Source: an uncultured Saprospiraceae bacterium
GTDB lineage: Bacteria; Bacteroidota; Bacteroidia; Chitinophagales; Saprospiraceae
Direction: 5' to 3'
DNA: 39,918 bases
Assembly (NCBI GenBank): GCA_937930815.1
Contig: CALHBQ010000103.1
Coordinates: forward strand, 1 to 39,918
Shown piece after piece: positions 4,001 to 23,190 of the stretch. Each line of letters begins with the position of its first letter. Positions within the stretch are counted from its first letter, which is position 1. The notes under the pieces are model-generated. The model was not told the origin of the DNA and ran no database searches. It was given only the letters and a program-made list of their open reading frames with translations. The position numbers and the translations under genes are program-made.

Positions 4001-6077
4001 TGATCCACTAGCCCAGATTGATCAAACTGCAACTCAACTTGCTGCTGGCAATTTTGAAGTTACCGTAAATGACAGTAACGGGTGCGAGCAAATCGCCGGA
4101 AACACAATTATTGAACCTGGCGAAATTAATGCAACATTCGATATTGAAGATGTCAAGTGTTTTGGAGACAGCTCTGGTGTCCTCGTTGCAAATATTGATG
4201 GAGGTGTTGGACCTTTTGATATAATGTGGAATGACCCTGACAATCAAACCGGACCGAGAGCCTCTAATCTTAAAGCAGGAACTTATACGATTACCATCAC
4301 GGATCAAAATATGTGTGTTCAAAATGATTTTGCAATTCTGGGTCAACCTGCCACTCCGATAACATCAAGTGTCACTCAAACTGATATAAGTTGCTTTGGA
4401 GCAAATAAAAATGCAGCGGAACTAACTGCCTCAGGTGGTACAGGAACTAATTACATTTATAGCTGGAGTAATGGATTTTCGGGTAGCAATATTTCTAATA
4501 TCATTGCAGGCACTTATTTTACGGAAGTTGAGGATGAAAACGGATGTATTGCAAAAGATACTATTAAAATCGAGGAGCATGAGCCATTAACGACCAACAT
4601 GCTTGTTATTCCTCCAACCTGTAATGATGGAACAGATGGAGGAATGGGCGTTCGCCCAAGAGGTGGCTCAAACGCGCCTGGCACCGTTAAATTCCAATGG
4701 AATACTTCAGATATTACTCCATTAATCGAAAATCTTGCAGGAGGTAGAGATTACTCCGTAACCGTTACAGACGGCGGCGGATGTAAGGGAGATACAACTG
4801 TTTTCTTACCTAATCCTGACCCGTTGGTAGTTTTGGGTACTTCCGAATTGGTAAAATGTTTTGGTGGAAATGATGGCACAGCCACAATCACAGGATTAGA
4901 TGGCGGTGGAATTATCGAAAGTTACAGATGGAGTTCTTCAGCCAATGATCAACAAACTCAAACAGCTACTGGATTAGCTGCTGGTCAATATCAGGTGACT
5001 ATATCTGATGACCAAGGTTGCCCTGGCTATCAAACAGTACTTGTTGATCAGCCCTCTCAAATAAAAATTATTGACGAAGACATCATCGACAATAATTGTT
5101 TTGGGGAAAAAGAAGGTTCGATACAAATTGATGTTAATGGAGGAACACCATTCGATAACCTACCAAGGTACCAAGTCGATTGGTCCAATAATGATTCTGG
5201 AACTACGATTAGAGAATTGGCATCTGGCGATTATAGAGTGACCGTTACGGATCAAAATGGTTGTGAAGAAGAGGATATTATTACTGTCGAACAACCAGAT
5301 CCAATTGATGCTGATTTTAAAGTAACAGATGTCATTTGTGCAGGTGGAAGAAATGGTCAAATTGAAATCGATGCAAGTGGTGGCTCTCCCCCTTATAAAT
5401 ATAGTTACCGAGAAGACTTTTTCACAGGAAGTAGTACACTGATTGGGCTAACTGCCCAAACTTATCAGGTTCTAATTACGGATAGATTTGATTGTAAGTT
5501 CTTTGAAGAAATTGAAGTCAAAGAACCCCTTCCAATCGAAGTCGAAGCAGGCCCTGATTTTGTTGAAATACAACTTGGCGATAGTGTGACCTTAATTGCG
5601 AATGCAACCAATGCAGTTGGAAATGTAGATTTCGAATGGAGTGCCGCCTACGACGGAACCTTAAGTTGTGATTTTTGTAAATACACGAACTCCAGTCCAA
5701 TGTCATCTATTATTTACACTCTCTATGGAGAAGATGAAAATGGCTGTTTTGATAGTGATAAAATTGAAGTACGCGTTCAGAAAGAACGTAAAATATTTGT
5801 CCCAACTGCCTTTACACCAAACCAAGATTTTACAAATGATAAGCTATTGGTTCATGGAAAAGATGGTACTCAAATTAAGTTATACCGAATCTATGACCGC
5901 TGGGGAGAATTGATATTTGAAGCCAAAGATTTCATGATAAATGATCCTAATATTGGATGGGATGGAATGTTCCGTTCCAAACCAGTAAATTCTGGAATCT
6001 ATCAATGGTATCTCGAAGTAGAATTCATTGATGAAGCTACTGATGTTTTCAAAGGTCATACAACTTTGATAAGATAG
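1062..6077 (+). CDS. giant secreted multidomain cell-surface protein with T9SS type B (gliding motility-associated / CHU_C) C-terminal domain
   Basis: 1671-aa ORF starting at ATG. Signal peptide MFIKRTLFVCLMVCTYLSTFCQ. CUB-like N-terminal module (STCEGFFTD...IKLEF...DSLEFYDD...GWNAKISC). PKD-like segment (FTWIFGEG...YNVSLQIKD). Two proprotein-convertase P-domain-like modules (ICVNMEHSWMRDMSITIQCPNGTEVEL; ICFDLETDYAFDIQAILHSPNGKSLVL...GDWILEVSD). Eight SprB-type repeats (C.G..DG......GG..P......W.......L.AG.Y.V.V.D..GC). C-terminal FVPTAFTPNQD..ND...IYDRWGELIF...GWDG..SGIYQWYLEV, characteristic of type B sorting domains. Confidence 0.85.
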   Translation: MFIKRTLFVCLMVCTYLSTFCQTFTMDGSRISTCEGFFTDKGGSNGDYWPNQNLSAVICSDGGSGSHIKLEFAGVYMAPGDSLEFYDDIVPNPNKFLAGQYEFFEGKPFVIQASRANPTGCITVTFKSNGFIQKQGWNAKISCVKSCQLFQAELALSEPSVFPIDTGWIDICPGQTIDFKGKGIYPQSGQFYPQSDATSEFTWIFGEGIVQSGQDVSYTFTEPGGYNVSLQIKDPEGCYNSNYFVQRVRVSPPPTFEIDGNLKREICAKDTLSLSASSDLGFNSDISVALNEGTFETGGVRSDSLALPDGTGVSYSTPIEFSNFAPGQTLQSVDDLESICVNMEHSWMRDMSITIQCPNGTEVELHNHPGNTGGMVFLGEPIDLDILNPRPGVGYDYCWTPDATRDTWINYANTNFTLLGSGTLPAGDYSSYQNLNKLVGCPLNGSWTINVTDWWLQDNGFIFSWSINFAPEVFPDLETFTPGIVSTDWIDNSSFLSENQDSIIAVPKNAGNASYIYEITDEFGCKWDTLINFDILPQTHPDCYSCKDYIEPMRDTMVCEGQAIQLDVTPTQPTSFPVSFESLPNERIGTDNYPPANGFEAIINVNNLNPGSISNPITQIEMICFDLETDYAFDIQAILHSPNGKSLVLTQNNGNTGSYRQTCFTPSANQSITTGAAPFTGDYIPQNGDWTPLTGAQINGDWILEVSDAAGAGEFGVLNSWMISFINEVDFTYTWNNPAVVSCTNCPNPMVTISEPTTLSVETVDNFNCKNTDEVDIDFFTAPSPTVVCASNENGEITIDWTDETGADFYEINIDNQGWVQMSNSEYNFGNYNHGDITDIQIRTHFEGVDCYSIIGAESCQYINCEIETNLTPNNTSCDGSPNGSVILNPENGFGDYSYTIDGRNFQNNNDFENLAADNYTAFVYDELGCGDTVIFEIATPLNFDLNVELVNNVSCFGGNDGRLRAVTTGGTTPFTYLWNDPLAQIDQTATQLAAGNFEVTVNDSNGCEQIAGNTIIEPGEINATFDIEDVKCFGDSSGVLVANIDGGVGPFDIMWNDPDNQTGPRASNLKAGTYTITITDQNMCVQNDFAILGQPATPITSSVTQTDISCFGANKNAAELTASGGTGTNYIYSWSNGFSGSNISNIIAGTYFTEVEDENGCIAKDTIKIEEHEPLTTNMLVIPPTCNDGTDGGMGVRPRGGSNAPGTVKFQWNTSDITPLIENLAGGRDYSVTVTDGGGCKGDTTVFLPNPDPLVVLGTSELVKCFGGNDGTATITGLDGGGIIESYRWSSSANDQQTQTATGLAAGQYQVTISDDQGCPGYQTVLVDQPSQIKIIDEDIIDNNCFGEKEGSIQIDVNGGTPFDNLPRYQVDWSNNDSGTTIRELASGDYRVTVTDQNGCEEEDIITVEQPDPIDADFKVTDVICAGGRNGQIEIDASGGSPPYKYSYREDFFTGSSTLIGLTAQTYQVLITDRFDCKFFEEIEVKEPLPIEVEAGPDFVEIQLGDSVTLIANATNAVGNVDFEWSAAYDGTLSCDFCKYTNSSPMSSIIYTLYGEDENGCFDSDKIEVRVQKERKIFVPTAFTPNQDFTNDKLLVHGKDGTQIKLYRIYDRWGELIFEAKDFMINDPNIGWDGMFRSKPVNSGIYQWYLEVEFIDEATDVFKGHTTLIR

Positions 6078-6444
6078 CTCCGATTGGCTTTAAAGAAAGT
6101 CAATTTCCCAAACGTAATTGCCTAAAACAAATAGGTATTTTAAAGATAGAAAAGTAATTAAAGTTGATCCAACAGATTATTTGATCGACTTTTGAATCCT
6201 TACCTTCCTATACTTTCCTCCTTGTTTAGACAATTACAATTAAAAAGATTCTTTTGAAAACCAGTTGGTTTGAAACTCATCTCGAATAAATTCGGGAGAA
6301 ATTTTATTTTCCTTATCAGTTAATGAAATTTCGGATTTGATTTCAATACTCATTTTCAAAGAATGTAAAATTACCTACCACAATTAATGCCCTTATCAAG
6401 CATTGATGGTAGGTTTTATTGAACCAAAGCTAATTTCGCTCATT

Positions 6445-7500
6445 ATGAAATTTTATTTACTATTAATAGCCACTACAATATTTTTCATTTTACCTTCAGA
6501 TACAAAAGCTCAAGACCCAATTTTTGGTCAATTCTATAGAGCTTCAACTCATTTGAATCCAGCTATGGCGGGGGTTTACAATGGTCGATTCAGGGTACAA
6601 TCAAATTTTAGAGAACAATGGTCAAGTATTCTTCCAAACAAGCCTTTTAGAACAATCGGTGCAAGTTTTGAATACAAAGTAAAAGTACTGCAAGGAGATT
6701 TCATGAATTTCTCTGGAACTATATTAAATGATCAAGCTGGAACTTCAAACTTTACAACGAATAGAGGTAATCTCGGTTTTTCATACTTAAAACAATTGAC
6801 AGGTGGTCGATATAATGATTACAATTCGTATTTGGTTGCAGGTGGTCAATTTGGTTTTGGGCAACACTCACTTGACTATGGCGGGTTATGGTTCTCAGCT
6901 CAATATGATGGTGCTAACGAACTGGTAGACAACAGTTTAAGTACAGGAGAAAACCTAAACAATAATTCAACTGACGTTTATACTGATTTCAATGCTGGTT
7001 TACTTTGGTACACGATTTTGGATCACAACTTCAGTTTCCATGCTGGTGGTGCATTGCAACATATTGCAGAACCGAACATTTCTTTTATGGAAAATGATGA
7101 AGAAATTTTACCTCGAAGATTTATCCTTCATGGAGGTGCAGAGCTTCCGTTTAGTGACAATCTGAGTATTTTGCCAGCTGCATTGGTGACCTTTCAGGGG
7201 CCATCCAGAACCATTATTAGTGGAGCAAATCTAAGATATACCAACAGAGATTGGGATGAGGTGGCTTTGAGAGTTGGAATGTGGGGTCAAATTTCAAATA
7301 AATTAGAAGACAAAATCCTTTTGAATAGTATGATTTTCAATGCTATTTTAGAAATGGAAAAATGGAGTGTTGGAATTAGTTATGATATCAATACATCTTC
7401 TGTTTCAGACTTATCAAACGGAAGAGGTGCTTATGAAATATCATTTATCTACACCCAACCAGCAAAATATAAACAAAAAGTAGAGTGTCCTAAATATTAG
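6445..7500 (+). CDS. PorP/SprF-family T9SS outer-membrane protein (cognate partner of the upstream type B cargo)
   Basis: The ORF track starts at TTG 6403, but ATG 6445 gives a clean signal peptide MKFYLLLIATTIFFILPSDTKAQ. That is followed by the family signature DPIFGQFY....LNPAMAG. Position directly downstream of a type B sorting-domain gene matches the SprB/SprF arrangement. Confidence 0.85.
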   Translation: MKFYLLLIATTIFFILPSDTKAQDPIFGQFYRASTHLNPAMAGVYNGRFRVQSNFREQWSSILPNKPFRTIGASFEYKVKVLQGDFMNFSGTILNDQAGTSNFTTNRGNLGFSYLKQLTGGRYNDYNSYLVAGGQFGFGQHSLDYGGLWFSAQYDGANELVDNSLSTGENLNNNSTDVYTDFNAGLLWYTILDHNFSFHAGGALQHIAEPNISFMENDEEILPRRFILHGGAELPFSDNLSILPAALVTFQGPSRTIISGANLRYTNRDWDEVALRVGMWGQISNKLEDKILLNSMIFNAILEMEKWSVGISYDINTSSVSDLSNGRGAYEISFIYTQPAKYKQKVECPKY

Positions 7501-8871: not shown

Positions 8872-10494
8872 ATGAAAAAATACACATTTACATTTCTTCT
8901 TTTTTTCGCTTTTTCGAATTTTTCCTTTGGACAATCTACTAAAATTGCAACCCAGAAAAAAATCGTTGAAAGCTCAAAAGGCTCTGAAAAAATAAGTGCT
9001 TTAATTCGTCTGTCTGAGTATTTAATGGCAGAGGATTTTCATAGAAAAGCTATCAAACCAGCAAAAGAAGCAAAAAAGTTAGCGATTGATTCAAACCGCA
9101 AAGAACTCGCTGCTATCGCGCTCAATCGCGAAGGAAAGGCAACTTATTCTGGTGGAATTTTAAGAGGCAGAAGAAAAGGTGAAAACCTTTTAAAAGAAAG
9201 TCTTTCCATTCTTCCAAAAGGGAAAAATATAAATTTAAAAATAGAAAATCTGGAATTGCTTGAAAAGTATTCTCGCTTACGCGGAAATGCAATGGATTCT
9301 TATAAATATAAAAAAGAATTGGCAGTAATAAAAGGTTTACCGATGCCAAAACCACCTGAAAACGTCGGAGGAAGATTCAATAAGAAAAGAAAGATGATTG
9401 AAGAAATCAGCGAAGAAAAGGAAGAACTCACGGAGGAAAAAGAGGAGCTAACTGAATCTTTAAAAAGTGTTACGGCAGAAACAAAACAGCTTAAAACACA
9501 ACGTAAACGATTAGACCAAGCGATAACCCAACAGCGTGAAAGAATCAGTACACTTTCCAAATATCAAATGGAGCAAGAAATGGAGCTAATGGAAAAAGCA
9601 CGGCTTTTAGATTCTTTAGAATTTGTGCGTGTTCTGGATAGTTTTAAGTTAAAACAACAAATGGTTGTTTTGAAGGAACAAAACATGGAATTGCGAGAGC
9701 AGTCAATGAAATTGGATTTACAAAAAAGTCAAAGAAACTTTTGGGGTGTCCTTTCTGCGCTTGGTCTTTTGATTGGAATCAGTCTTTGGTCTCGATATCG
9801 AAGCATCAAAAAGCACAGTGATCAATTGGAAGAAAAAAACGAAATTATCGCCAAAGAGCAAGAACGTTCTGATGAATTACTATTAAATATCTTACCTCAA
9901 AAAGTCGCTGAAGAATTGAAAGAAAATGGCGTTGCCAAAGCCAGAAAATACGATTTGGCGACCGTACTTTTTACAGATTTTGTTGGATTCAGTAAAAGTG
10001 CGAGCGAAATGGCACCTGAAGTCTTAGTTTATGAGTTAGATTTTTATTTCAAAAAATTTGATGAGATCATCACAAAATACGGTTTAGAAAAAATTAAAAC
10101 CATCGGTGATTCCTACATGTGCGCAGGCGGATTACCCAATCGAAGCGCCAATCATCCGTTCAAAGTGATGAGTGCGGCTATCGAGATTCAGAAATTTATG
10201 AATCAATGGAAAGACCACAAAAAAGCAAAAGGCGAAGTGTTCTTTGAGGCAAGAATTGGTATTCACTCAGGGCCAATTGTAGCGGGTGTGGTGGGCAAGA
10301 AAAAATATGCATATGACATTTGGGGAAACACCGTAAATATCGCTTCTCGCCTTGAAAGCGCTTGCGAACCAGGACAGATCAATATTTCGAAAAAGACTTA
10401 TGATTTGGTAAAAAGTAAATTTGAGGCAGAAACGAGAGGTAAAATAGATGCCAAAAATATAGGAGAGATTGAGATGTTTTATTTGAAAGGATAA
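8872..10494 (+). CDS. membrane-anchored class III adenylate/guanylate cyclase with N-terminal extracytoplasmic and coiled-coil region
   Basis: Signal peptide MKKYTFTFLLFFAFSNFSFGQ, a long charged coiled-coil (EEKEELTEEKEELTE...) and a TM segment FWGVLSALGLLIGISLWS. Cyclase motifs: ATVLFTDFVGFS, KTIGDSYMCAGGLP, RIGIHSGPIVAGVVG, YDIWGNTVNIASRLES. Confidence 0.85.
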   Translation: MKKYTFTFLLFFAFSNFSFGQSTKIATQKKIVESSKGSEKISALIRLSEYLMAEDFHRKAIKPAKEAKKLAIDSNRKELAAIALNREGKATYSGGILRGRRKGENLLKESLSILPKGKNINLKIENLELLEKYSRLRGNAMDSYKYKKELAVIKGLPMPKPPENVGGRFNKKRKMIEEISEEKEELTEEKEELTESLKSVTAETKQLKTQRKRLDQAITQQRERISTLSKYQMEQEMELMEKARLLDSLEFVRVLDSFKLKQQMVVLKEQNMELREQSMKLDLQKSQRNFWGVLSALGLLIGISLWSRYRSIKKHSDQLEEKNEIIAKEQERSDELLLNILPQKVAEELKENGVAKARKYDLATVLFTDFVGFSKSASEMAPEVLVYELDFYFKKFDEIITKYGLEKIKTIGDSYMCAGGLPNRSANHPFKVMSAAIEIQKFMNQWKDHKKAKGEVFFEARIGIHSGPIVAGVVGKKKYAYDIWGNTVNIASRLESACEPGQINISKKTYDLVKSKFEAETRGKIDAKNIGEIEMFYLKG

Positions 10495-10505
10495 GCACTT
10501 TTTTA

Positions 10506-12078: not shown

Positions 12079-12888
12079 CTACCAAACTTGCCATGGCTTC
12101 CACCTTAGCGGAACCAATTTCCAATGCTGTTTTTCTTTGAAGTCTTTGTTAAAAAAAACGTAGCCGAATTGATAAAGGTCAATTGATTGAGTGACGCGTG
12201 GATCATTTTTGAGTTCCGTCCATGCTTTCGTCATTTCGTCTGACCAATAAATATCATCAAAAACGATAATGGTGTTTTCATTGGACTTTTTCATACAAAG
12301 TTCAAAATAGTCCATCGTCGGCTGATAGCGATGATTGCCATCAATAAAAACCAAATCTAATGATTCGATTTCCTTTAATGCATTTGGTAAAGATTGTCCA
12401 AATTCACCTGTGAACTGCTGAATGTTTTTAGCCTTCGACGTTTGAAAATTATTTTGAGCCACCTTTGCGACATTCGGACACCCCTCTATCGTATAAACTT
12501 TAGAAGCATCATTTGCTTTGGAAAAATAGAGTGTCGAAATTCCTAAGGAAGTGCCTAATTCCAAAATGCTTTTCGGTTGATAAGTCAAAGCAGTTTTGAA
12601 TAGAATTTTGGCGAAATGAACAGCTGTTGCAGAAGTCTTTGCAATTTCACTGATACGCTTTTTCTTTTTGGGCAACACCAAAGAACCTGCTCCGAAATCA
12701 TTGACATCTATCACAGATTTATTTTGCCTTAACTGCTCTCTCAGGGTGACTAAATCGCCGTATGCGTAGAAATTACGCTGGTCTTCCAGTATTTTTCTAC
12801 AAAAATCAAATACGAATGGCGAATGGACACCATGCAGCGTATTTGCAGAGAAATAAAACTTTAGAAATTGGAAAATCCGTTTAATCAA
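12079..12888 (-). CDS. class I SAM-dependent methyltransferase (O-methyltransferase-like)
   Basis: Motif I ILELGTSLGISTLY, then VFIDGNHRYQPT and IVFDDIYWSDEM, typical of the O-methyltransferase family 3-like fold. TTG start; no in-frame ATG, GTG or TTG between it and the upstream stop at 12973-12975. Confidence 0.75.
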   Translation of the reverse strand: MIKRIFQFLKFYFSANTLHGVHSPFVFDFCRKILEDQRNFYAYGDLVTLREQLRQNKSVIDVNDFGAGSLVLPKKKKRISEIAKTSATAVHFAKILFKTALTYQPKSILELGTSLGISTLYFSKANDASKVYTIEGCPNVAKVAQNNFQTSKAKNIQQFTGEFGQSLPNALKEIESLDLVFIDGNHRYQPTMDYFELCMKKSNENTIIVFDDIYWSDEMTKAWTELKNDPRVTQSIDLYQFGYVFFNKDFKEKQHWKLVPLRWKPWQVW

Positions 12889-12933
12889 GGTGGTTGTATG
12901 TTTGATTGAAGTGCAAAGAAAAGAAATGATGGC

Positions 12934-12965
12934 AAAAAAATTCCCGTTTCGAGTGGAAACGGGAA
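12934..12965 (-). terminator. orphan rho-independent terminator reading on the minus strand
   Basis: Perfect 10-bp stem TTCCCGTTTC (12941-12950) / GAAACGGGAA (12956-12965) with a 5-nt loop. The A7 run at 12934-12940 on the plus strand is a U7 tail on the minus strand. No ORF lies upstream of it on the minus strand. It sits 46 nt upstream of the methyltransferase start. Confidence 0.7.
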
Positions 12966-13052
12966 AAGAGAATCAAACATCACGCATTAAATAAGAAGAG
13001 TTAGTCTTTGTTTTTTGTTCAAATTTTTAAAATCAAAAATATTTTTTTTGGC

Positions 13053-13113
13053 TTTTGGAATAAAAAATTTAGGGGGCAGAGCTGGTATCTTTAGGAATTT
13101 GCAGATAAAAAAA
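13053..13113. repeat. intergenic repeat family A, copy 1
   Basis: TTTTGGAATAAAAAATTTA-GGGGGCAGAGCTGGTATCTTTAGGAAT-TTGCAGATAAAAAAA; core at 13072-13098. Confidence 0.85.
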
Positions 13114-13114
13114 G

Positions 13115-13138
13115 TAGTGTTTGTCTTTTGATTTGGAA
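13115..13138. repeat. intergenic repeat family B, copy 1 (TAGTGTTTGTCTTTTGATTTGGAA)
   Basis: 22/24 identical to 13408-13431. Runs into a coreless second copy of TTTGGAATAAAAAATT (13132-13147). A weaker relative, TAGTCTTTGTTTTTTGTTC, is at 13002-13020. Confidence 0.75.
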
Positions 13139-13206
13139 TAAAAAATTGTTCATAATTTTTGTCTCTTATCCTCTAATCATAATCTCATGAAAAAAATTCT
13201 TGCGGC

Positions 13207-13271
13207 TTTGGAATAAATAAAAAATTCAGGGGGCAGAGCTGGTCTCTTTAGGAATTTTGCAGATAAAAAAA
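13207..13271. repeat. intergenic repeat family A, copy 2
   Basis: TTTGGAATAAATAAAAAATTCA-GGGGGCAGAGCTGGTCTCTTTAGGAAT-TTTGCAGATAAAAAAA; core at 13229-13255. GGGAGGA follows at 13274-13280. Confidence 0.85.
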
Positions 13272-13331
13272 TGGGGAGGATTTTTTCTTTCATTTTAAAA
13301 AACAACATTTAAAATTCAAATTTTTTCAATC

Positions 13332-13390
13332 GGTTTAAAAGAAAAAAATTCGGGGAGCAGAGCTGGTATCTTTAGGAATAATGCAGAAAA
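13332..13390. repeat. intergenic repeat family A, copy 3
   Basis: GGTTTAAAAGAAAAAAATTC-GGGGAGCAGAGCTGGTATCTTTAGGAAT-AATGCAGAAAA; core at 13352-13379. GGGAGGA follows at 13398-13404. Confidence 0.85.
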
Positions 13391-13407
13391 TTAAGAAGGG
13401 AGGAATT

Positions 13408-13431
13408 TAGTGTTTGTTTTTTGCTTTGGAA
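13408..13431. repeat. intergenic repeat family B, copy 2 (TAGTGTTTGTTTTTTGCTTTGGAA)
   Basis: 22/24 identical to 13115-13138. Confidence 0.75.
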
Positions 13432-13521
13432 ATTCTTGTGTTTACTGTGTAAGTTTAATCTGTTAATTGTAAGTTTTGGTAAAATGTAAATGTCAAAAAA
13501 TAAAATCAAGCCTTAATAATG

Positions 13522-13560
13522 ATAAAGGAAAAAAACTTGGGGGGAGAGCTGGTATCTTTA
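13522..13560. repeat. intergenic repeat family A, copy 4 (truncated 3' half)
   Basis: ATAAAGGAAAAAAACTT-GGGGGGAGAGCTGGTATCTTTA; core at 13539-13560. Followed by a perfect 8-bp hairpin GTTTCAAA/TTTGAAAC at 13565-13587 instead of the GGAAT..GCAGA tail. Confidence 0.8.
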
Positions 13561-13926
13561 AACGGTTTCAAATGATAAGTTTGAAACACGTTTGTGTTCT
13601 AAAATAAAAGCAAGGGTAAATGTCAAAAGGGAGAATATCTTGGGTGGGATGAGGTAATTTTATTTTTACCCCGATAAGATGTCACAAAGATAAAGCAAAT
13701 GAAGGTTATGATCCAAATCTCAAAATACTCAAAAATCATGATTTTAGCAATTTTCAATCATTTCAACATAAAGCACTGATTACCAGTAACTTACAATAAG
13801 TTATACAATAATCAATCAATGGTTTACCAATTGATTATCAAACAATTACGCAAACCATAAATAGATAAATTAAAAAAAAAACATTTAATCTTTTACCCAT
13901 AATTGATCGAAATTATATTGATAATT

Positions 13927-13939
13927 TTTGTGTCACAAA
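13927..13939. promoter_or_regulatory. palindrome TTTGTG-T-CACAAA (candidate operator)
   Basis: Perfect 6+1+6 inverted repeat 122 nt upstream of pyrC. The 10-mer TGTCACAAAG (13931-13940) also occurs at 13680-13689. Confidence 0.3.
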
Positions 13940-13990
13940 GTTTTTTTATGTTTTTGAGGACTGAAATTTAGCAAAATTTTCAAATAATTT

Positions 13991-14011
13991 TATATTTGTG
14001 ACATCACAAAT
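13991..14011 (+). promoter_or_regulatory. candidate pyrC promoter -7 box TATATTTG overlapping palindrome ATTTGTGA-CA-TCACAAAT
   Basis: 13991-13998 matches the Bacteroidota TAnnTTTG -7 consensus, but I found no clear TTTG -33 partner. 13994-14011 is a perfect 8+2+8 inverted repeat 50 nt upstream of ATG 14061. Confidence 0.35.
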
Positions 14012-14060
14012 AATAATAAATAAAATTAAAATCATTTAATTTAAAGGCATATCATTAAAA

Positions 14061-15407
14061 ATGAGCAATAAAAACGGAATTTTAATCAAAAACGGCCTTT
14101 TAGTAAATAAAGGAAAGAAAACTGTCAAAGACGTCTTAATCAAGAATGGACGCATCGAAAAAATCGATAATGCGATTTCTGCGAAAGGCAATAAAGTAAT
14201 AGACGCAGAAGGATTAATCGTAATGCCTGGAGTCATTGATGACCAAGTTCACTTCAGAGAACCAGGACTTACCCACAAGGCGAATATCTATACAGAGGCA
14301 AAAGCAGCAGTGGCTGGAGGTACAACTTCGTTTATGGAAATGCCAAACACCAAGCCGCCTGCTGTCACTCAAACCAAGTTGGAAGAAAAATATCAAGTTG
14401 GTGCTAAGACCTCTTTGGCCAATTATTCTTTCTTTATGGGAGCTGCCAATGATAATTTGGAGGAGGTTTTAAAAACCGATCCTAAAACTGTCTGCGGTAT
14501 CAAGGCATTTATGGGTTCGAGTACTGGTAATATGTTGGTAGATAACCCAGTGACCTTGGAGAAGCTCTTTTCAGAATGTCCAATGTTGATTGCAACACAT
14601 TGTGAAGATGAAAATACAGTCAGAACGAATTTGGCTTTATTTAAAGAAAAGTACGGCGAATCAATGCCCATCAAATATCATCCTGAAATCAGAAATGTGG
14701 ATGCCTGTTTGATATCAAGCACTCTGGCTACTGATTTGGCGAAAAAACACAATGCCCGTTTGCACATCCTACATATTTCTACAAAAGAAGAATTGAAGTT
14801 ATTTGGAAATAAAATTCCACTTGCTCAAAAAAGAATCACTTCTGAGGTTTGTGTGCATCATTTATATTTTGATGCGACGCATTATGATAAGATGGGTACA
14901 AAAATCAAATGTAACCCTGCCATCAAAGAACCTTCTCATAAAAAGGAATTATTCAAAGCACTTTTAGATGATAGATTGGATATCATCGCAACAGACCATG
15001 CACCTCATACCATTGAGGAAAAAGCAAACAATTATTTCTCCGCTCCATCTGGCCTTCCTTTAGTACAGCACTCCTTAAATGTCATGCTCGACTTTTACCA
15101 TCAAGGAAAAATCAGTTTGGAAAAGATAGTTGAAAAAATGTGCCATGCCCCAGCTATTTGTTTTGAAATAGAAAAACGTGGGTTCTTAGAGGAAGGTTAT
15201 TGGGCAGACATCGTATTACTTGACCCAAACAAAGAATGGACGGTGACCAAAAGAAATGTAAAATACAAATGTGGTTGGTCACCATTGGAAGGCAAACGAT
15301 TCAAAGGAAAAGTGAATACCACCATCGTCTCTGGTCATATTGCTTACCGAAATGGTCGGTTTTATGAAAACAAAACGGGAGAACGTCTGACATTTGATAG
15401 AGACTAA
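14061..15407 (+). CDS. pyrC: dihydroorotase (long, allantoinase-like class)
   Basis: 448 aa. Amidohydrolase ligand set: DDQVHFREPG, IKAFMG (Lys), ATHCED, ILHIST, ATDHAPH. Overall pattern typical of Bacteroidota PyrC. Confidence 0.85.
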   Translation: MSNKNGILIKNGLLVNKGKKTVKDVLIKNGRIEKIDNAISAKGNKVIDAEGLIVMPGVIDDQVHFREPGLTHKANIYTEAKAAVAGGTTSFMEMPNTKPPAVTQTKLEEKYQVGAKTSLANYSFFMGAANDNLEEVLKTDPKTVCGIKAFMGSSTGNMLVDNPVTLEKLFSECPMLIATHCEDENTVRTNLALFKEKYGESMPIKYHPEIRNVDACLISSTLATDLAKKHNARLHILHISTKEELKLFGNKIPLAQKRITSEVCVHHLYFDATHYDKMGTKIKCNPAIKEPSHKKELFKALLDDRLDIIATDHAPHTIEEKANNYFSAPSGLPLVQHSLNVMLDFYHQGKISLEKIVEKMCHAPAICFEIEKRGFLEEGYWADIVLLDPNKEWTVTKRNVKYKCGWSPLEGKRFKGKVNTTIVSGHIAYRNGRFYENKTGERLTFDRD

Positions 15408-15442: not shown

Positions 15443-16894
15443 ATGAAATTACTGCTTTCAATTATTGCTTTCGCTATTTCAATTTCTGCTTTCGCTCAAC
15501 CGATTCAAGGAACTTTATTAGATAGCTGGAAAGATTCTACCATATTAGGTACCGCTGCCTTTGACAATGCCTACAACGATGTCTGGGGATTCAAAGTGAA
15601 CAATCATGAGTATGCTGTGATTGGTTCAACTTTCGGAATGCATATCATTGATGTGACCGACCCAAGAGATATTTTTGAGGTAGAAAGATTTCAAGGAAAG
15701 GATTTTGGGGAAAGAATCATTCATCGAGATTATCATGAGTATAAAGGATACATTTATGCAGTGAGTGATGAGGGAGAAAGTTCCATGCAAATAATAGATA
15801 TCTCTCAACTACCAGATACCGTTACGATGGCATACGATAGTGATTCCGTTTTTATTCAATCGCATAATATTTTCATCGATACGAGTCATGCTCGACTATA
15901 TAGTTTTTTGACTTCTACCCCACTCGAACGAAATACTCGTGGTGTCGCTGTTTATGACATTTCAGAACCAACTAGCCCTAAGTATGTAAAACATTTTGGG
16001 GATTTTGGGATATTGAGTCCTAACCATGTTCATGATGGGTATGTGAGAGATCATATCGCGTTTTTAAACTGTGGAAACGATGGTTTTGCTATAATGGATT
16101 TTACAGATTTAGAAAATCCGATAAGTTTAGGAGTTCTCAATTCAAACGCATATTTGCAATCAGGTTATAACCATTCAGGTTGGCCGTCGGATGATTGTAG
16201 CTATTATTACATGGCTGACGAGACTTGGGGGATGGATATAAAAGCAGTTGATCTTTCAGACAAAACAGATATGGTGGTCACTAATTTTTTCAATGCTGGA
16301 AATCCAGATTCTAATAGTATCCCTCATAACCAAATTGTAGCTTGCGATTATTTATATGTTTCCTACTATTATGATGGGTTGCAAGTATTTGATATTTCTG
16401 ATCCATCAAATCCGCAACGTGCGATGCATTATAATACTACAAGTAGAAATATTATGCGGGGTTATGAAGGCGCTTGGGGTGTTTATCCGCATCTTCCTTC
16501 AGGTAATATTTTAGTTTCTGATATGCAAGAAGGGCTTTTTGTAATTGAAGCCATCGACAGCAGATGTAATCCAAATGCAAACTTAAAATCTTGTAATGCC
16601 CTGTCTTCCAACGAGGATTTGAAAAAAGCTTCTGCAAATCTTCAAATTTTTCCCAATCCAATATATGATCAATTGAATTTTTCCGTTTCAGGAATCTCTG
16701 AGTTTCAGAATGGAACTGTTTCGATTTTGGGCGTTGATGGAAAATTGATAAAAGCCTTTCCTAATTTTGAATTTCAACAAGGAAAAAATTCAATTTCTCT
16801 TTCAGGCAACTTTCAAATTCCAAACGGTATCTATTATTTGAAAATAAATGCTGAAAATATCAATGGAATTCAGAGGTTTGTGATTCATCAATAA
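15443..16894 (+). CDS. secreted beta-propeller-like protein (LVIVD-repeat / choice-of-anchor B-like) with T9SS type A C-terminal sorting domain
   Basis: Signal peptide MKLLLSIIAFAISISAFAQ. YNDVWGF...EYAVIGS..GMHIIDVTDP and later GLQVFDISDPSNP repeats. C-terminal LQIFPNPIYDQLNF...GIYYLKINAENINGIQRFVIHQ is a type A sorting domain. Confidence 0.65.
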   Translation: MKLLLSIIAFAISISAFAQPIQGTLLDSWKDSTILGTAAFDNAYNDVWGFKVNNHEYAVIGSTFGMHIIDVTDPRDIFEVERFQGKDFGERIIHRDYHEYKGYIYAVSDEGESSMQIIDISQLPDTVTMAYDSDSVFIQSHNIFIDTSHARLYSFLTSTPLERNTRGVAVYDISEPTSPKYVKHFGDFGILSPNHVHDGYVRDHIAFLNCGNDGFAIMDFTDLENPISLGVLNSNAYLQSGYNHSGWPSDDCSYYYMADETWGMDIKAVDLSDKTDMVVTNFFNAGNPDSNSIPHNQIVACDYLYVSYYYDGLQVFDISDPSNPQRAMHYNTTSRNIMRGYEGAWGVYPHLPSGNILVSDMQEGLFVIEAIDSRCNPNANLKSCNALSSNEDLKKASANLQIFPNPIYDQLNFSVSGISEFQNGTVSILGVDGKLIKAFPNFEFQQGKNSISLSGNFQIPNGIYYLKINAENINGIQRFVIHQ

Positions 16895-17039
16895 ATTAAT
16901 CGAAGTTGCTATCAATCGTAAAGTGCACCCTGAGCGAAGTCGAAGGGTACAGAGCAAAAATCGATTTCCATGTCTCATGGCTTCGACTCGGCTCAGCCAA
17001 CAGACTTGAAGAAGATAGCAACTTGATTCATCAATAAAT
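16881..17039. mobile_element. MITE/REP-like palindromic insert (127 bp) bounded by a 16-bp direct duplication
   Basis: Direct repeats TGATTCATCAATAAAT at 16881-16896 and 17024-17039. Outer inverted 10-mers AGTTGCTATC (16904-16913) / GATAGCAACT (17014-17023). Inner inverted pair CCCTGAGCGAAGTCGAAGGG (16928-16947) / GCTTCGACTCGGCTCAGCC (16980-16998). No coding capacity. Confidence 0.6.
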
Positions 17040-17046
17040 CGATTCG

Positions 17047-21241: not shown

Positions 21242-22921
21242 TTATTTAGTTACAACAAATTTGTTGACACTAAATCCTTCATCTGTAATCGTATTCATCA
21301 AGTAAGTACCTGAATTAAAATTAGAAACATTGAATTGCAAAGTTTGCTTTTGAACGTTTTCAAATTTTTGTTCAGCAATTCTTTTCCCTGAAAGGTCTGT
21401 GATTACAACTCTTACGACTTTTGAATTTTCTTCTAAATCCAATTCTAATGAAACGACATCAGAAGTAGGATTAGGGAATACTTTCACTTTAGCTAAAGCT
21501 AAAGCTTGGTTTTCAGTAGAAGTAAAACCAGCCAAGTGTAATCTTACAACGTGATTGTTGTTTGATGCCCATCCACCTGTAAAGAAACTGGTAGGCTCAT
21601 AAATCAAAGTACTTGGTAATGGATAATTAGTAGCACCTGCAATTGAGAAAAACGGAGCTTTTCCAATTCCTGCAGTTTCACCTAAATATTGAACCATTAC
21701 TGCATACCCACCATCAGCTTTCATTGTAATTGGATCAAAGAAAGGCACCGTAATTAACCCATGAGGAGTTTCAGAACCATCCATAGTGTAACCACCAAAT
21801 CCAACGATTTCAAAATCCGGGTAATCAGCACCTAAAATACCATCGCCATCAGGATCCATATCATAAACAACCAATGAGAATAAATCTGCATTTGGGTTAT
21901 TAGTGAAAAGCGTATCAGGATTACCAATTGCAAAAGTTGCGTGAGTAGCAGTTGCTCCATTTGGTCCAGTATAATACGCAGAACCTACGTGGAATTCATT
22001 TCCTGCCGCTACAAACCGATCGTTTCCGATTGAAACAGAGGTAGTTGGGTTTCCTAAATCGACAGAGTAGGTATAATCTGTCATTTCAAAAGGAGAACGC
22101 AAAGTATCAGTATTCAAATCTGATGTAAACATTACCATGTGATTCCCCATTTGTGTTGGCGTGAAGCCAGTAAACGTAATCGTAGAATCCGCTAATGGTG
22201 GAACCTCAGCAGTTGCTGTTAATTCTGTGATAGTACCGTCTGGCTCAATCAAAGTAGCTGTAACTACTGGATTTACAGTTGCAGAGGAATCTTCATTAAA
22301 GTAATTAACTGTTGGGGTAATCGCTAATGCTTGATCCAATGGTGTTTGGTAGGCGAATGGAGCAACATTATTGGTCAAGTTTCTCAATTCAAAAGCGCCC
22401 ATAACAGTAACTCCAGCATCAATTTGACCAGCCAAAATTTCTGATGTTAGCCTAGAAGCAAAAATAGCAGGAATCGTTACTGGCTCCATCATATCACCCA
22501 ATAACATTCCAAATAATGTCTGAGAATCATCATCTGGATTATCATAGTGATTAACGATAATAACACCAGCTGCACCAGCCAATTCAGCATTCCAAACTTT
22601 GGTACTAAAGTTACAAGCACCTCTTCTAATCATTGCTAATTTCCCTGTAAGGTCACCTACAACAGGAGCGCAACATAAGCTATCTGTAGCATCATAAGCC
22701 CAAACGATTTCTCCGCGTACATCCATTGCTAATGTTGGGCCCCAGATTCCTGGTGTACCTGATGCATCAGCAGACATGGTGGTGTAATCATAAACGCCCG
22801 CAATAGCAGAAGGAGCTTCAACAACAAAATCAATCGGATATGGAGACTCATCGTTGATTTGAGCAAGAAGCATAGTTGAGGTACAAATAATCGCACCTAT
22901 TAGTGTAAATATTTTTTTCAT
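21242..22921 (-). CDS. secreted PA-domain protein with T9SS type A C-terminal sorting domain (paralog 1)
   Basis: 559 aa with a signal peptide. PA (protease-associated) domain DLTGKLAMIRRGACNFSTKVWNAELAGAAGVIIVNH. No HExxH or Ser-protease motifs seen. C-terminal VKVFPNPTSDVVSLEL...GTYLMNTITDEGFSVNKFVVTK. Confidence 0.8.
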   Translation of the reverse strand: MKKIFTLIGAIICTSTMLLAQINDESPYPIDFVVEAPSAIAGVYDYTTMSADASGTPGIWGPTLAMDVRGEIVWAYDATDSLCCAPVVGDLTGKLAMIRRGACNFSTKVWNAELAGAAGVIIVNHYDNPDDDSQTLFGMLLGDMMEPVTIPAIFASRLTSEILAGQIDAGVTVMGAFELRNLTNNVAPFAYQTPLDQALAITPTVNYFNEDSSATVNPVVTATLIEPDGTITELTATAEVPPLADSTITFTGFTPTQMGNHMVMFTSDLNTDTLRSPFEMTDYTYSVDLGNPTTSVSIGNDRFVAAGNEFHVGSAYYTGPNGATATHATFAIGNPDTLFTNNPNADLFSLVVYDMDPDGDGILGADYPDFEIVGFGGYTMDGSETPHGLITVPFFDPITMKADGGYAVMVQYLGETAGIGKAPFFSIAGATNYPLPSTLIYEPTSFFTGGWASNNNHVVRLHLAGFTSTENQALALAKVKVFPNPTSDVVSLELDLEENSKVVRVVITDLSGKRIAEQKFENVQKQTLQFNVSNFNSGTYLMNTITDEGFSVNKFVVTK

Positions 22922-23033
22922 AAACTGGTAAAATTTGATTTAACAATAATAAGGATCGAAGATAAAGATAAGAATCACTTTCTTTTTATAAATCATTATT
23001 TTTTGAAGTATTCTTGACAAAATTTCGGCTTAA
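22922..23033 (-). promoter_or_regulatory. conserved 5' region of paralog 1 (duplicated with the gene)
   Basis: About 110 nt align with 24853-24963. Shared blocks include AAACTGGTAAA, GAAGATAAAGATAA and ATTTTTTGAAGT.TTCTTGACAAAATTTCG. The exact promoter elements are not resolved. Confidence 0.5.
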
Positions 23034-23129
23034 GTTTTGGGTTGATGCGTCCTTCGCATCATTTCCCCTACAATAAACTGGATAAATTAGACTTTATTCT
23101 AAAAATGAATACCCCAAGGACTTTGTAAT

Positions 23130-23165
23130 AAAAAAACTGGCCATCAGAAAAATTCCAATGGCCAG
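23130..23165 (-). terminator. rho-independent terminator of PA-domain paralog 2
   Basis: Perfect 8-bp stem CTGGCCAT (23137-23144) / ATGGCCAG (23158-23165). The A7 run at 23130-23136 on the plus strand is a U-tail on the minus strand. Confidence 0.75.
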
Positions 23166-23190
23166 TTTCTATTTTCAAAATTTGAATGAA

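What the first reader, a model, noticed from the sequence alone, without database searches (positions are those of the whole stretch)
12889..14060. 1.17-kb ORF-free, repeat-dense gap between the methyltransferase gene and pyrC
This is the longest non-coding stretch in the window; the other gaps are about 10-680 bp. It has no ORF of 60 aa or more in any frame. It is structured rather than AT-rich filler: a four-copy ~60-nt repeat family (13053-13560); a 24-nt repeat (13115, 13408); a duplicated 13-mer GTAAATGTCAAAA (13486-13498, 13616-13628); a perfect 8-bp hairpin (13565-13587); an imperfect inverted repeat ATAATCAAT...ATTGATTAT (about 13808-13840); an orphan minus-strand terminator (12934-12965); and two TTTGTG/CACAAA palindromes next to pyrC. 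I recognise no tRNA, rRNA, RNase P, tmRNA, SRP RNA, CRISPR or IS ends in it. Candidate explanations are a cluster of small non-coding RNA genes, an array of protein-binding sites, or an eroded mobile element.
Basis: seen in the sequence. Interest (0 to 1): 0.68.

Follow-up and report, generated by a model that had tools for sequence, protein, structure and literature searches.

The report
Orphaned leader and trailer RNA region
The gap is what remains of a surface-protein gene's transcription unit after the coding part was lost: promoter, long leader, trailer and terminator survive, partly duplicated, and are conserved so strongly that they probably still act as non-coding RNA.

Summary

In relatives from Saprospiraceae-like Bacteroidota, the same site holds a ~310-330-aa beta-helix (Chlamydia PMP-repeat) gene on the minus strand, divergent from pyrC. 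It has a consensus Bacteroidetes promoter, a 270-800-nt C-rich, G-poor leader, and a trailer ending in a conserved box next to an intrinsic terminator.

In this genome and its closest relatives the coding sequence is gone. The promoter (13717-13685, minus), the leader, the trailer and the terminator (12965-12934) remain. A ~157-nt junction unit has been tandemly duplicated: 2 copies here, 4 in a strain whose pyrC protein is 96% identical.

The repeat core (B: A-run, G5-6, nAGAGCTGGTaTCTTTA) occurs only at this locus. It always has the same orientation, in 1-6 copies, in lineages whose pyrC protein is only 62-70% identical to the window's.

The remnant is 90-97% identical between strains whose four-fold degenerate sites are 45-72% identical.

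Best reading: a ~750-nt minus-strand non-coding RNA, plus a possible nested ~96-nt small RNA, with repeated single-stranded motifs. What binds those motifs is unknown. It is not a mobile element, CRISPR array, oriC, peptide gene cluster or any Rfam family.

The parts
12934..12965 (-). Intrinsic terminator: 10-bp stem 12941-12965 followed by a T7 tract at 12940-12934. It ends the minus-strand unit just upstream of the methyltransferase start at 12888.
   Evidence: Found by the terminator scan and the centroid fold. Orthologous hairpins in 11 loci differ in sequence but keep pairing, with the T-run always on the minus strand.
12966..12990 (-). A' box. The minus-strand RNA reads ..AAUGCGUGAUGUUUGAUUCUC, single-stranded, immediately 5' of the terminator. 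It looks like a small-RNA seed.
   Evidence: CGTGATGTTTGATTC is invariant or nearly so in window, L163-165, L002, L009, L014, L015, L064, L092, L127 and L170. The frame ending RDV* is not open in most loci, so it is not coding.
13001..13017 (-). D motif copy 1. + strand TTAGTCTTTGTTTTTTG; on the RNA, the CA-rich CAAAAAACAAAGACUAA.
   Evidence: D-like motifs form arrays in the leaders of L014, L064 and L009.
13034..13041 (-). Candidate -7 promoter box TATTTTTG for a nested short RNA, predicted from about 13029 to 12934 (about 96 nt).
   Evidence: Exact TAnnTTTG match. L163 has TAATTTTG at the same place. TA(A)TTG-like boxes lie 44-56 nt upstream of A' in L002, L009 and L170. In L170 a canonical terminator separates the coding sequence from this module. 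This part is inferred.
13057..13113 (-). Repeat copy c1 (B core 13062-13095 plus tail). It sits in the position where the L002-group relatives carry their single B copy, in the trailer.
13114..13218 (-). Second copy of trailer-derived sequence: a D motif, GTTCATAATTTTTG at 13148-13161, and CTCATGAAAAAAATTC at 13184-13199. It is homologous to the 3' UTR of the beta-helix gene in L164 (about 4228-4340).
   Evidence: by reading the sequences side by side. It is part of the ~157-nt tandem unit, which has 4 copies in L163.
13214..13271 (-). Repeat copy c2. It lies exactly where the beta-helix coding sequence sits in L164 and L165.
13338..13392 (-). Repeat copy c3, orthologous to leader copy B1 of L164 (5399).
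   Evidence: GGGG(A/G)GCAGAGCTGGTAT(C/T)TTTAGGAAT is invariant in 5 genomes.
13407..13423 (-). D motif copy 3.
13524..13560 (-). Repeat copy c4 (type 2). This is the copy nearest the minus-strand promoter, about 120-155 nt downstream of the predicted start. The same copy is present in L163-169, L093, L127 and L015.
13565..13587 (-). 8-bp hairpin just 5' (on the RNA) of copy c4.
   Evidence: In L163, L166 and L167 one substitution turns a pair into G-U on the minus RNA; the same change would be an A-C mismatch on the + strand. Other loci have a different hairpin at this place (read by eye).
13651..13672 (-). 7-bp hairpin at the 5' end of the predicted transcript.
   Evidence: Pairs alternate GU/AU and GC/GU among 6 genomes. 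These pairings work only on the minus strand.
13685..13717 (-). Consensus Bacteroidetes sigma-A promoter TTTG-N21-TATCTTTG. The predicted start is A at about 13680.
   Evidence: TAnnTTTG-TGAC is on this strand, 122-213 nt from the last B copy, in window, L162-165, L093, L127 and L015, and TAGCTTTG-TGAC in L014. The -7 box spans -12 to -5 in Flavobacterium (PMC9723704).
13808..13838 (.). Inverted repeat ATAATCAAT..ATTGATTAT. It is probably an operator in the pyrC control region and not part of the RNA unit.
   Evidence: TGATTATCA-type palindromes are partly conserved in L163-165.
13927..13939 (.). Palindrome TTTGTG-T-CACAAA, a probable operator between the divergent promoters.
13991..14010 (+). 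Likely pyrC promoter: -7 box TATATTTG followed by TGACATC. Predicted start about 14003, giving a 58-nt 5' UTR.
   Evidence: TTTGTGACAT lies 63-70 nt upstream of the pyrC ATG in L163-169.

Best explanation
The gap is the non-coding remainder of a minus-strand transcription unit.

In related Saprospiraceae-like bacteria this unit encodes a small secreted beta-helix (PMP-repeat) protein, divergent from pyrC. It has four parts: a sigma-A promoter of the form TAnnTTTG-TGAC; an unusually long leader (270-800 nt) that is C-rich, G-poor and largely unstructured; the coding sequence; and a trailer. The trailer ends in a conserved single-stranded box (A') next to an intrinsic terminator.

In the lineage of this window the coding sequence was lost. 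Leader and trailer became contiguous, and the junction unit of about 157 nt (repeat B plus trailer sequence) was amplified in tandem.

Shown in silico: the promoter, the terminator, the homology to the relatives' untranslated regions, the absence of the coding sequence, the copy-number variation, and conservation far above that of neutral sites.

Inferred: the region is still transcribed, as a ~750-nt non-coding RNA (about 13680 to 12934). It probably also yields a nested ~96-nt RNA made of the A' seed plus the terminator, from a second -7 box at 13041.

Inferred with lower confidence: the B' motif on the RNA (AAAGAUACCAGCUCUGCCCCC-N3-U6-9) is a single-stranded recognition site for a trans-acting factor, either a protein or a G-rich RNA. 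In relatives it would control elongation, termination or stability of the surface-protein mRNA. The motif resembles the 3' arm and U-tract of a terminator without the 5' arm, and the leader has the composition of a Rho-loading region. In this genome the multi-copy RNA would persist as a stand-alone regulatory or decoy RNA.
For: (1) Gene loss. L164 (pyrC protein 88% identical) and L165 (80%) have methyltransferase(-), a 310-312-aa PMP-repeat gene(-), then pyrC(+). The window and L163 (96%) have the same neighbours but no such gene, and tblastn finds no remnant.

(2) Module membership. All 8 pyrC-collected loci that carry the gene also carry B and A'. L170-173, fetched through the PMP protein, carry A' and the promoter but no B. 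Homologues that are not next to pyrC lack A', B and the TTTGTGAC promoter box.

(3) Specificity of B. An HMM of B finds 28 copies in about 1.45 Mb. All lie at this locus and all have the same orientation. Copy number is 1-6: window 4, L163 6, L164 2, L165 3, L092 3.

(4) Promoter. TTTG-N21-TATCTTTG lies on the minus strand at 13717-13685. Two of the three other hits to this pattern in the window lie just upstream of genes in the right orientation. The -7 box is conserved on this strand in all 9 genomes checked.

(5) Strand. The terminator T-tract is on the minus strand. Two hairpins keep pairing through G-U only on the minus RNA. No conserved + strand promoter lies upstream of the repeats.

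(6) Selection. Between window and L163, four-fold degenerate sites are 45-72% identical. Gap segments 12889-13720 are 90-97% identical and the pyrC-proximal part 80-84%. The pattern holds against L166, L167 and L168.

(7) Not coding. Open frames through A' and B' are not conserved, mostly lack start codons, and homopolymer indels separate close strains.

(8) Leader properties. C/G ratio is 1.25-3.1 in seven leaders. Folding z-scores of the repeat units are about 0 and there is no consensus structure.

(9) Typical Bacteroidetes 5' UTRs have a median length of 24-32 nt (PMC9723704), so these leaders are exceptional.
Against: There are no expression data, so the transcription start, the 3' ends and even transcription itself are predictions.

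The partner of B' is unknown, and no mechanism is demonstrated.

B' lies 5' of the coding sequence in some lineages and 3' of it in others. That fits an RNA-level element, but it is unusual for any single known mechanism.

L170 keeps the unit but has an ordinary hairpin terminator where the L002 group has B', and it has no B copy at all. B is therefore not indispensable to the unit.

High conservation could partly reflect DNA-level constraints of the pyrC control region or a locally low mutation rate. One control intergenic region (argS-PA) is also 94% identical.

The tandem junction units vary in number between strains, as neutral minisatellites do.

The A' seed shows no better-than-random pairing with the PMP or pyrC translation start regions.
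Confidence: 0.5

Rival explanations
1. B is a double-stranded DNA operator. Arrays of B sites bind a transcription factor or nucleoid protein that controls the two divergent promoters (pyrC and the beta-helix gene). The gap would be a large cis-regulatory DNA region rather than an RNA gene.
For: The ~22-bp core is asymmetric, highly specific, and invariant among paralogous and orthologous copies. The A-tract plus G-tract is a likely DNA-bending signal. The copies lie between divergent promoters, which share the extended motif TTTGTGACAT, and palindromic operators are nearby. Conservation persists after loss of the coding sequence, which fits a role in pyrC control.
Against: In L002, L009, L014, L064 and L092 the only B copies lie beyond the beta-helix gene, more than 1.3 kb from both promoters and next to the terminator. 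All copies share one orientation and all fall inside the predicted minus-strand unit. The copies start about 120 nt downstream of the predicted start and about 500-1000 nt from pyrC. Bacterial operators rarely act from there, and no sigma-54 promoter was seen by inspection of the repeat and promoter regions (no dedicated scan).
Confidence: 0.2
2. The gap is a neutral relic. After the gene was deleted, its untranslated regions are simply decaying, and the 157-nt unit behaves as a minisatellite with no function.
For: Copy number differs between close strains: 2 against 4 junction units. Homopolymer lengths drift. Assemblies of relatives break in the array. No function is demonstrated.
Against: The remnant is 90-97% identical between strains whose four-fold sites are 45-72% identical, and it is more conserved than pyrC itself at the nucleotide level. 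The loss predates the split of window and L163, yet promoter, hairpins, B cores, A' and the terminator are all intact. B and A' are conserved across lineages at only 62-70% pyrC protein identity.
Confidence: 0.1
3. The gap is a cluster of independently transcribed small RNA genes, one per repeat. This was the first reader's leading idea, and resembles tandem small-RNA arrays such as NsiR1.
For: The units are tandem. One repeat-adjacent -7 box exists at 13041. Weak -7-like sequences lie 27-40 nt downstream of some B' copies (by inspection).
Against: Only two exact TAnnTTTG boxes lie on the minus strand in the gap, and there is only one terminator. The repeats are not structured. In relatives with the coding sequence, B' is not followed by any -7 box before the start codon.
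Confidence: 0.08
4. The gap is an eroded mobile element or MITE, or the repeats encode small peptides.
For: The region is repeat-dense and AT-rich. B' reads (I/K)PALPPxFF in one frame, and some changes are synonymous in appearance.
Against: There are no terminal inverted repeats and no transposase. No other copy exists in the window or in about 1.45 Mb of related loci. The exact pattern is absent from the species-representative genomes and from the JGI metagenome contigs. The location and orientation are fixed across genera. ORFs through B' lack ATG in about 28 of 36 copies. They vary from 14 to 142 codons. They are frameshifted between strains at 96% pyrC protein identity.
Confidence: 0.04

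Closest known systems
Small RNAs at mRNA 3' ends, either processed from the 3' UTR or made from an internal promoter (for example CpxQ, SroC and DapZ in enterobacteria; from my own knowledge)
   Same: The A' module has a strongly conserved, unpaired ~17-nt stretch directly upstream of an intrinsic terminator at the end of a protein-coding unit. A candidate promoter of its own lies 44-56 nt upstream, as for DapZ. The module survives independently of the coding sequence.
   Different: The phylum has no Hfq- or ProQ-type chaperone known to me. No target was found: pairing with the local translation start regions is no better than chance. Expression is untested and there is no Rfam family.
Multi-site decoy RNAs such as CsrB/RsmY/RsmZ and CrcZ (from my own knowledge)
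   Same: A non-coding RNA of several hundred nucleotides carries several copies of one short conserved motif. Copy number varies between relatives.
   Different: The motif is C- and U-rich (ACCAGCUCUGCCCCC...U6-9), not GGA in hairpin loops or AAnAAnAA. The RNA is predicted to be unstructured. No cognate binding protein is known. GGA is enriched only on the strand that appears untranscribed. The RNA derives from the untranslated regions of a lost gene.
Long leaders governed by conditional termination: Rho-dependent attenuators, and specialised NusG paralogues acting in leaders of surface-component operons (RfaH/ops in enterobacteria, UpxY in Bacteroides; from my own knowledge)
   Same: The leader is very long for the phylum, C-rich, G-poor and unstructured, and lies upstream of a secreted or surface protein gene. 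It carries a short conserved element. The + strand form of B in one group (GGGGGTAG) resembles ops (GGCGGTAG).
   Different: The ops-like reading is on the wrong strand for the only supported promoter. The element is repeated, also occurs 3' of the coding sequence, and persists without any downstream gene. No NusG paralogue is encoded in the window. Sequence conservation is far stricter than in known Rho-loading sites.
Tandem small-RNA gene arrays (NsiR1 in Nostocales; from my own knowledge)
   Same: Tandem direct repeats in an intergenic region next to a conserved gene.
   Different: There is no promoter and terminator per repeat here.

Membership tests
Any Rfam 15 family (riboswitches, PyrR site, known small RNAs, Flavo-1 and others) | Covariance-model score at or above the gathering threshold | tested here: not met
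   No hits at gathering score in the window. In eight related loci the only hit is an unrelated tRNA. E-value-mode hits have E of 0.7 or more and lie on the terminator.
Bacteroidetes sigma-A promoter | -33 TTTG and -7 TAnnTTTG separated by about 19-21 nt, upstream of a transcribed unit, with a conserved position | tested here: met
   13717-13685(-) matches with N21. The -7 box is conserved on that strand in 9 genomes. Consensus and register are from PMC9723704. Activity is not testable here.
Intrinsic (Rho-independent) terminator | GC-rich hairpin immediately followed by a U-tract, kept by compensatory change | tested here: met
   12965-12934(-): 10-bp stem plus T7. Orthologues have different stems, for example GTTTC/GAAAC becoming GTCTC/GAGAC in L165.
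Terminator-proximal seed small RNA (3'UTR-type) | Conserved unpaired seed next to the terminator, a discrete 5' end (own promoter or processing site), and a trans target | tested here: inconclusive
   Seed and terminator are met. The candidate -7 box is only partly conserved. No target was found locally. Expression is not testable here.
MITE, IS remnant or other mobile element | Terminal inverted repeats, target-site duplication, and dispersed copies in the genome and its relatives | tested here: not met
   There are no other copies. Collection scans with the exact pattern returned nothing. Locus and orientation are fixed.
CRISPR array | Regularly spaced near-identical repeats of 24-48 nt with unique spacers, usually with cas genes | tested here: not met
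   Spacing is 157, 124 and 186 nt and the repeats are 81-84% identical. No cas domains occur among the window proteins.
Chromosomal origin (oriC) | A cluster of DnaA boxes | tested here: not met
   No TTATCCACA match with at most 1 mismatch lies inside the gap. The window total of 14 compares with 12.7 expected.
Small-protein or peptide genes | An ORF with a start codon, conserved in frame and length among orthologues | tested here: not met
   Frames are not conserved between window and L163.
CsrB/RsmZ-type sponge | Many GGA motifs in hairpin loops on the transcribed strand, and CsrA in the genome | tested here: not met
   GGA occurs 16 times against 9.7 +/- 2.7 expected, on the + strand only, with TCC occurring once. 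The + strand lacks a conserved promoter and the motifs are not in stable loops. Presence of CsrA is not testable here.
RfaH ops / JUMPStart-type element | GGCGGTAG on the non-template strand within the leader of the regulated operon, and a cognate NusG paralogue | tested here: not met
   The resemblance (GGGGGTAG or GGGGGCAG) is on the + strand, which is the template side for the supported minus-strand unit. No NusG-like gene is in the window.
Rho-dependent attenuator (rut region) | More than 70-80 nt of C-rich, G-poor, unstructured RNA upstream of termination points, and sensitivity to Rho | tested here: inconclusive
   Composition and lack of structure are met: C/G is 2.1 here and 1.25-3.1 in relatives, and z-scores are about 0. 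Rho dependence is not testable here.

The most novel reading that the evidence does not exclude
B' is a new kind of bacterial RNA signal. It is a hairpin-less 'half terminator' (a C-rich arm plus a U-tract) that works only together with a sequence-specific trans factor, to stop or release transcription of a surface-protein mRNA. After the coding sequence was lost, the multi-copy leader and trailer were retained and amplified because the RNA itself had become a regulator: a decoy that titrates that factor. That would make it an example of an untranslated region outliving its gene.
Probability: 0.18. Interest if true: 0.72.

Novelty: new member of a known kind. Interest (0 to 1): 0.45.

Why it matters
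Few regulatory RNAs are known in Bacteroidota outside Bacteroides and Flavobacterium, and none in Saprospiraceae.

This locus offers three things:
- A deeply conserved, locus-specific ~30-nt motif and a seed-plus-terminator module that are in no RNA database.
- A natural experiment. The protein-coding part of a transcription unit was lost, yet its untranslated parts stayed under strong constraint and were amplified. That points to a function of the RNA or DNA itself.
- A practical warning. The tandem units break metagenome assemblies of this lineage at exactly this place.

If the predicted transcript exists, the element can be tested directly with standard RNA-end mapping and pull-downs.

Tried and rejected
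- Known RNA families: none found by Rfam in gathering or E-value mode, or by ARAGORN.
- Exact repeat pattern in public collections: no match in species-representative genomes or metagenome contigs. Exact look-up of the window's own pyrC protein was not on record.
- Peptide readings: + frame 'KxLGGRAGIF', minus frame 'PALPPxFF', and an 'RDV*' C-terminus at A'. All were rejected because frames are not open or not conserved, start codons are lacking, and homopolymer indels separate close strains.
- oriC: no DnaA boxes.
- Sigma-54 promoter within B: the TGGTAT...TTGCA spacing is 10 nt, not 5 (by inspection).
- PyrR site, boxA and a tRNA fragment: only partial resemblance, and the resembling positions vary between copies.
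- Pairing between B and the D motif on the + strand: possible only through trivial G-U and A-U pairs. Folding z-scores are about 0 and there is no consensus structure.
- CsrB-like reading of GGA motifs: wrong strand.
- RfaH/ops reading: wrong strand.
- A' seed pairing with the PMP or pyrC translation start regions: no better than shuffled seeds.
- Remnant of the beta-helix gene in the gap: none by tblastn with five orthologues.
- Literature search for the motif sequences: nothing relevant.
- B as a recombination site flanking an excisable cassette: considered because a B copy sits where the coding sequence was. However, no genome has B on both sides of the gene and no recombinase is nearby.
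- Exact deletion and duplication path: not resolved.
Full report
**1. What is in the window**

Positions 12889-14060 lie between a class I methyltransferase gene (12079-12888, minus) and a dihydroorotase-type amidohydrolase gene, pyrC (14061-15407, plus). No ORF of 60 aa or more lies inside; the longest is 45 aa. This is the largest inter-ORF gap of the window. GC content is 27% against about 36% in the flanks, and G greatly exceeds C on the + strand (135 G to 58 C in 13000-13660).

- Four copies of a repeat, at 13057-13093, 13214-13250, 13338-13374 and 13524-13560. The core has 0 matches in shuffles.
- A second motif, 'D' (TAGTsTTTGTyTTTTG), at 13002, 13115 and 13408.
- The duplicated 13-mer, the hairpin at 13565-13587, the inverted repeat at 13808-13838, the TTTGTG/CACAAA palindromes, and a strong minus-strand terminator at 12965-12934.

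Rfam and ARAGORN find nothing.

**2. Source organism and relatives**

The best pyrC matches in species-representative genomes and in JGI metagenome contigs are only 60-72% identical. They come from Saprospiraceae, Lewinellaceae and Haliscomenobacteraceae MAGs. The exact repeat pattern is absent from both collections.

A search of the large protein collection found much closer relatives, at 97, 96, 95, 94, 88 and 80% identity. Their contigs were fetched as L161-L169.

**3. The repeat core is a conserved, locus-specific element**

nhmmer and blastn with the repeat found single copies upstream of pyrC in distant loci. Pattern and HMM searches then gave 28 copies in about 1.45 Mb of related DNA. 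All are at this locus and all have the same orientation relative to pyrC.

The core ('B') reads A6-9, N0-3, G5-6, nAGAGC, (T)GGT. Copy numbers are:
- window 4, L163 6, L164 2, L165 3
- L092 3 (48-49 nt apart)
- L002, L009, L014, L064, L015, L093, L127: 1 each

These lineages differ from the window by 30-38% in pyrC protein sequence.

Two further elements are conserved in the same loci:
- A box, GAGAATCAAACATCACG, next to the minus-strand terminator.
- A box, GATGTCACAAAGATA, 122-213 nt to the pyrC side of the last B copy.

**4. A gene is missing here**

All 8 pyrC-collected relatives that carry a 310-366-aa beta-helix / Chlamydia-PMP-repeat gene on the minus strand, between the A box and pyrC, also carry B and A'. 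L170-173, fetched through the PMP protein and sharing this arrangement, carry A' and the promoter but no B.

L164 (88%) and L165 (80%) have the order methyltransferase(-), PMP gene(-), pyrC(+). The window and L163 (96%) have the same flanking genes but no PMP gene. tblastn with five orthologues finds no remnant.

Read side by side, the sequences match as follows:
- Window 12990-13060 and 13114-13218 correspond to the 3' untranslated region of the L164 gene (L164 about 4190-4340).
- Window copies c3 and c4, with their flanks, correspond to the two B copies in the L164 leader (5399, 5481).
- Copy c2 sits exactly where the coding sequence is in L164.

The ~157-nt unit (B plus trailer sequence) is present twice in the window and four times in L163, with 157-159-nt spacing. 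Contigs of four other close relatives end 815-916 nt upstream of pyrC, inside the array. This is as expected for a tandem repeat that breaks short-read assemblies.

The exact deletion path could not be resolved. Direct repeats such as TTGTTCATA(A/G)TTTTTG flank the gene in L164 and could have mediated the loss. This is an inference.

**5. Direction of transcription**

The box GATGTCACAAAGATA is, on the minus strand, TATCTTTG-TGACATC. That is an exact Bacteroidetes -7 box (TAnnTTTG). With TTTG 21 nt upstream it forms a full consensus promoter at 13717-13685.

Of the three other full-pattern hits in the window, two lie just upstream of genes in the right orientation, so the pattern does find real promoters. 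The -7 box is conserved on this strand in all nine genomes checked: TATCTTTG, TATTTTTG, TATGTTTG and TAGCTTTG. L170 has TACTTTTG.

In Flavobacterium the box occupies -12 to -5 (PMC9723704). That predicts a start at A of about 13680.

The same extended motif, on the + strand at 13991-14002, is the likely pyrC promoter (start about 14003). It is conserved 63-70 nt upstream of pyrC in the close relatives.

Three further observations point to the minus strand:
- The terminator's T-tract is on that strand.
- The hairpin at 13651-13672 keeps pairing through GU/AU and GC/GU alternation, which is possible only on the minus RNA.
- The hairpin at 13565-13587 acquires a G-U pair in L163, L166 and L167. 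On the + strand the same change would be an A-C mismatch.

No conserved + strand promoter precedes the repeats.

The predicted product in the window is therefore a 747-nt minus-strand RNA with no ORF. In relatives the same promoter gives leaders of about 250-800 nt. The median for the phylum is 24-32 nt.

**6. Properties of the RNA**

The leaders are C-rich and G-poor: C/G is 2.1 here and 1.25-3.1 in seven relatives. The repeat units fold no better than shuffled sequence (z about 0). There is no consensus structure.

On the RNA, B reads AAAGAUACCAGCUC(U/G)(G/C)CCCCC-N3-U6-9. That is a C-rich stretch followed by a U-tract, like the 3' half of a terminator without its 5' arm.

B lies in the leader in the window, L163-165, L093, L127 and L015. 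It lies in the trailer in L002, L009, L014, L064 and L092. In L170 the trailer position is occupied by a canonical hairpin terminator with a similar 3' arm.

The A' module is CGUGAUGUUUGAUUC plus the terminator. It is nearly invariant in 12 loci. It is preceded at 44-56 nt by a -7-like box: TATTTTTG at 13041-13034 here and TAATTTTG in L163. This suggests a nested ~96-nt small RNA.

**7. Selection**

Between the window and L163, four-fold degenerate sites of six flanking genes are 45-72% identical. Gap identities are:

| Segment | Identity |
|---|---|
| 12889-13060 | 91% |
| c3 region | 93% |
| c4 plus hairpin | 90% |
| 13600-13720 | 97% |
| pyrC-proximal part | 80-84% |

Control intergenic regions are 56-94% identical. 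The same holds against L166, L167 and L168: the leader is 88-94% identical, against 53-72% at four-fold sites.

The coding sequence is absent from both the window and L163, which suggests that its loss predates their split. On that reading the remnant has been held nearly constant since then.

**8. Interpretation**

The anatomy and origin of the gap are well supported. It is the leader, trailer, promoter and terminator of a lost gene, with the junction duplicated.

That it still functions as RNA rests on the intact signals and the strong constraint.

How B' works is not known. I favour a single-stranded recognition site for a trans factor acting on transcript elongation, termination or stability. 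Four reasons support this:
- It stays within one transcription unit but on either side of the coding sequence.
- It has a fixed orientation.
- It carries a U-tract.
- It sits in a Rho-loading-like context.

A DNA operator array remains a serious rival. A neutral relic, one small-RNA gene per repeat, a mobile element and peptide genes fit the data poorly (see the rival explanations).

**9. Comparison with known systems**

By design the region resembles three known kinds of system: 3'-end-derived small RNAs (the A' module), multi-site decoy RNAs, and long attenuating leaders of surface-protein operons. It is not a member of any curated family. It fails the tests for CsrB-type sponges, ops elements, CRISPR arrays, MITEs, oriC and peptide genes (see the membership table).

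I rate it as a new, uncharacterised member of the broad class of bacterial non-coding or leader RNAs. It is of moderate interest, mainly for the deep conservation of B and A' and for the persistence of untranslated regions without their gene.

**Limits**

All relatives are metagenome contigs. There are no expression data. Start sites are predicted from a consensus established in other Bacteroidota. The public-collection scans were exhausted before a model-based genome-wide search for B could be run.

Noticed in passing
window 13685-13692(-) and 13991-14002(+); also L163-L169: The two divergent promoters share the same extended sequence, TAnnTTTG-TGACAT. Palindromes TTTGTG-n-CACAAA (13927-13939, 13995-14010) and TGATTATCA-type inverted repeats (13808-13838) lie between them. 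This suggests a common regulator for pyrC and the minus-strand unit.
   Followed up: partly
L162, L166, L167, L168 (contig ends 815-916 nt upstream of pyrC); L161, L169: Metagenome contigs of the closest relatives end inside the tandem repeat array, so the repeats break short-read assemblies at this locus.
   Followed up: partly
L092 3560-4400: In this more distant relative the PMP-type gene is also absent. Three B copies stand 48-49 nt apart next to the A' box, and two other small minus-strand ORFs occupy the site (a signal-peptide-like ~86-aa protein and one ending in '..MGNS..').
   Followed up: partly
L014 5177-5325, L064 5174-5314, L009 1826-2220: The leaders of the PMP-type gene in these genomes carry arrays of a CA-rich motif (on the RNA, CAAAAAACAAAGAC) at 15-79-nt spacing. 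It is related to the window's D motif. The same motif directly precedes AUG codons of small ORFs in L127, L015, L092 and L170.
   Followed up: partly
L002 ~3530-3600, L009 ~300-380, L092 ~3840-3910, L170 4630-4715: Downstream of the PMP-type gene lies a conserved element, 'AGCCATGGGAAATAG', followed by a long hairpin whose arms differ between genomes but stay complementary. Its 3' arm resembles B' (..UACCAGC..). It is absent from the window.
   Followed up: no
L127 3090-3202(-), L015 ~440-555(-): A conserved 37-aa hydrophobic ORF (MNSDTILFVLFAVLPTVWLFGKII..) lies between the PMP-type gene and the A' box. It has no counterpart in the window.
   Followed up: no
L174 2518-3500; L175, L176: PMP-type homologues at 43-45% identity are not next to pyrC; they follow a DUF6089 gene and precede recQ. 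They lack the A', B and TTTGTGAC boxes. In L174 the gene nevertheless follows a 983-nt non-coding stretch.
   Followed up: partly
window 1062-6077, 6403-7500, 15443-16894, 21242-26943: The window is rich in type IX secretion cargo and components: a 1671-aa SprB-repeat protein, PorP/SprF, an LVIVD protein, and three proteins with a Por_Secre_tail. A 540-aa adenylate/guanylate cyclase lies at 8872-10494.
   Followed up: no
window 16895-17046 vs L163 8837-8845; window 10495-10505 vs L163 1972-2097: Other intergenic regions differ greatly in length between the window and L163 (152 against 9 nt; 11 against 126 nt). This contrasts with the tight conservation of the studied gap.
   Followed up: no
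L165 52-1128: An ISL3-family transposase gene lies about 1.4 kb from the methyltransferase gene in the 80% relative.
   Followed up: no
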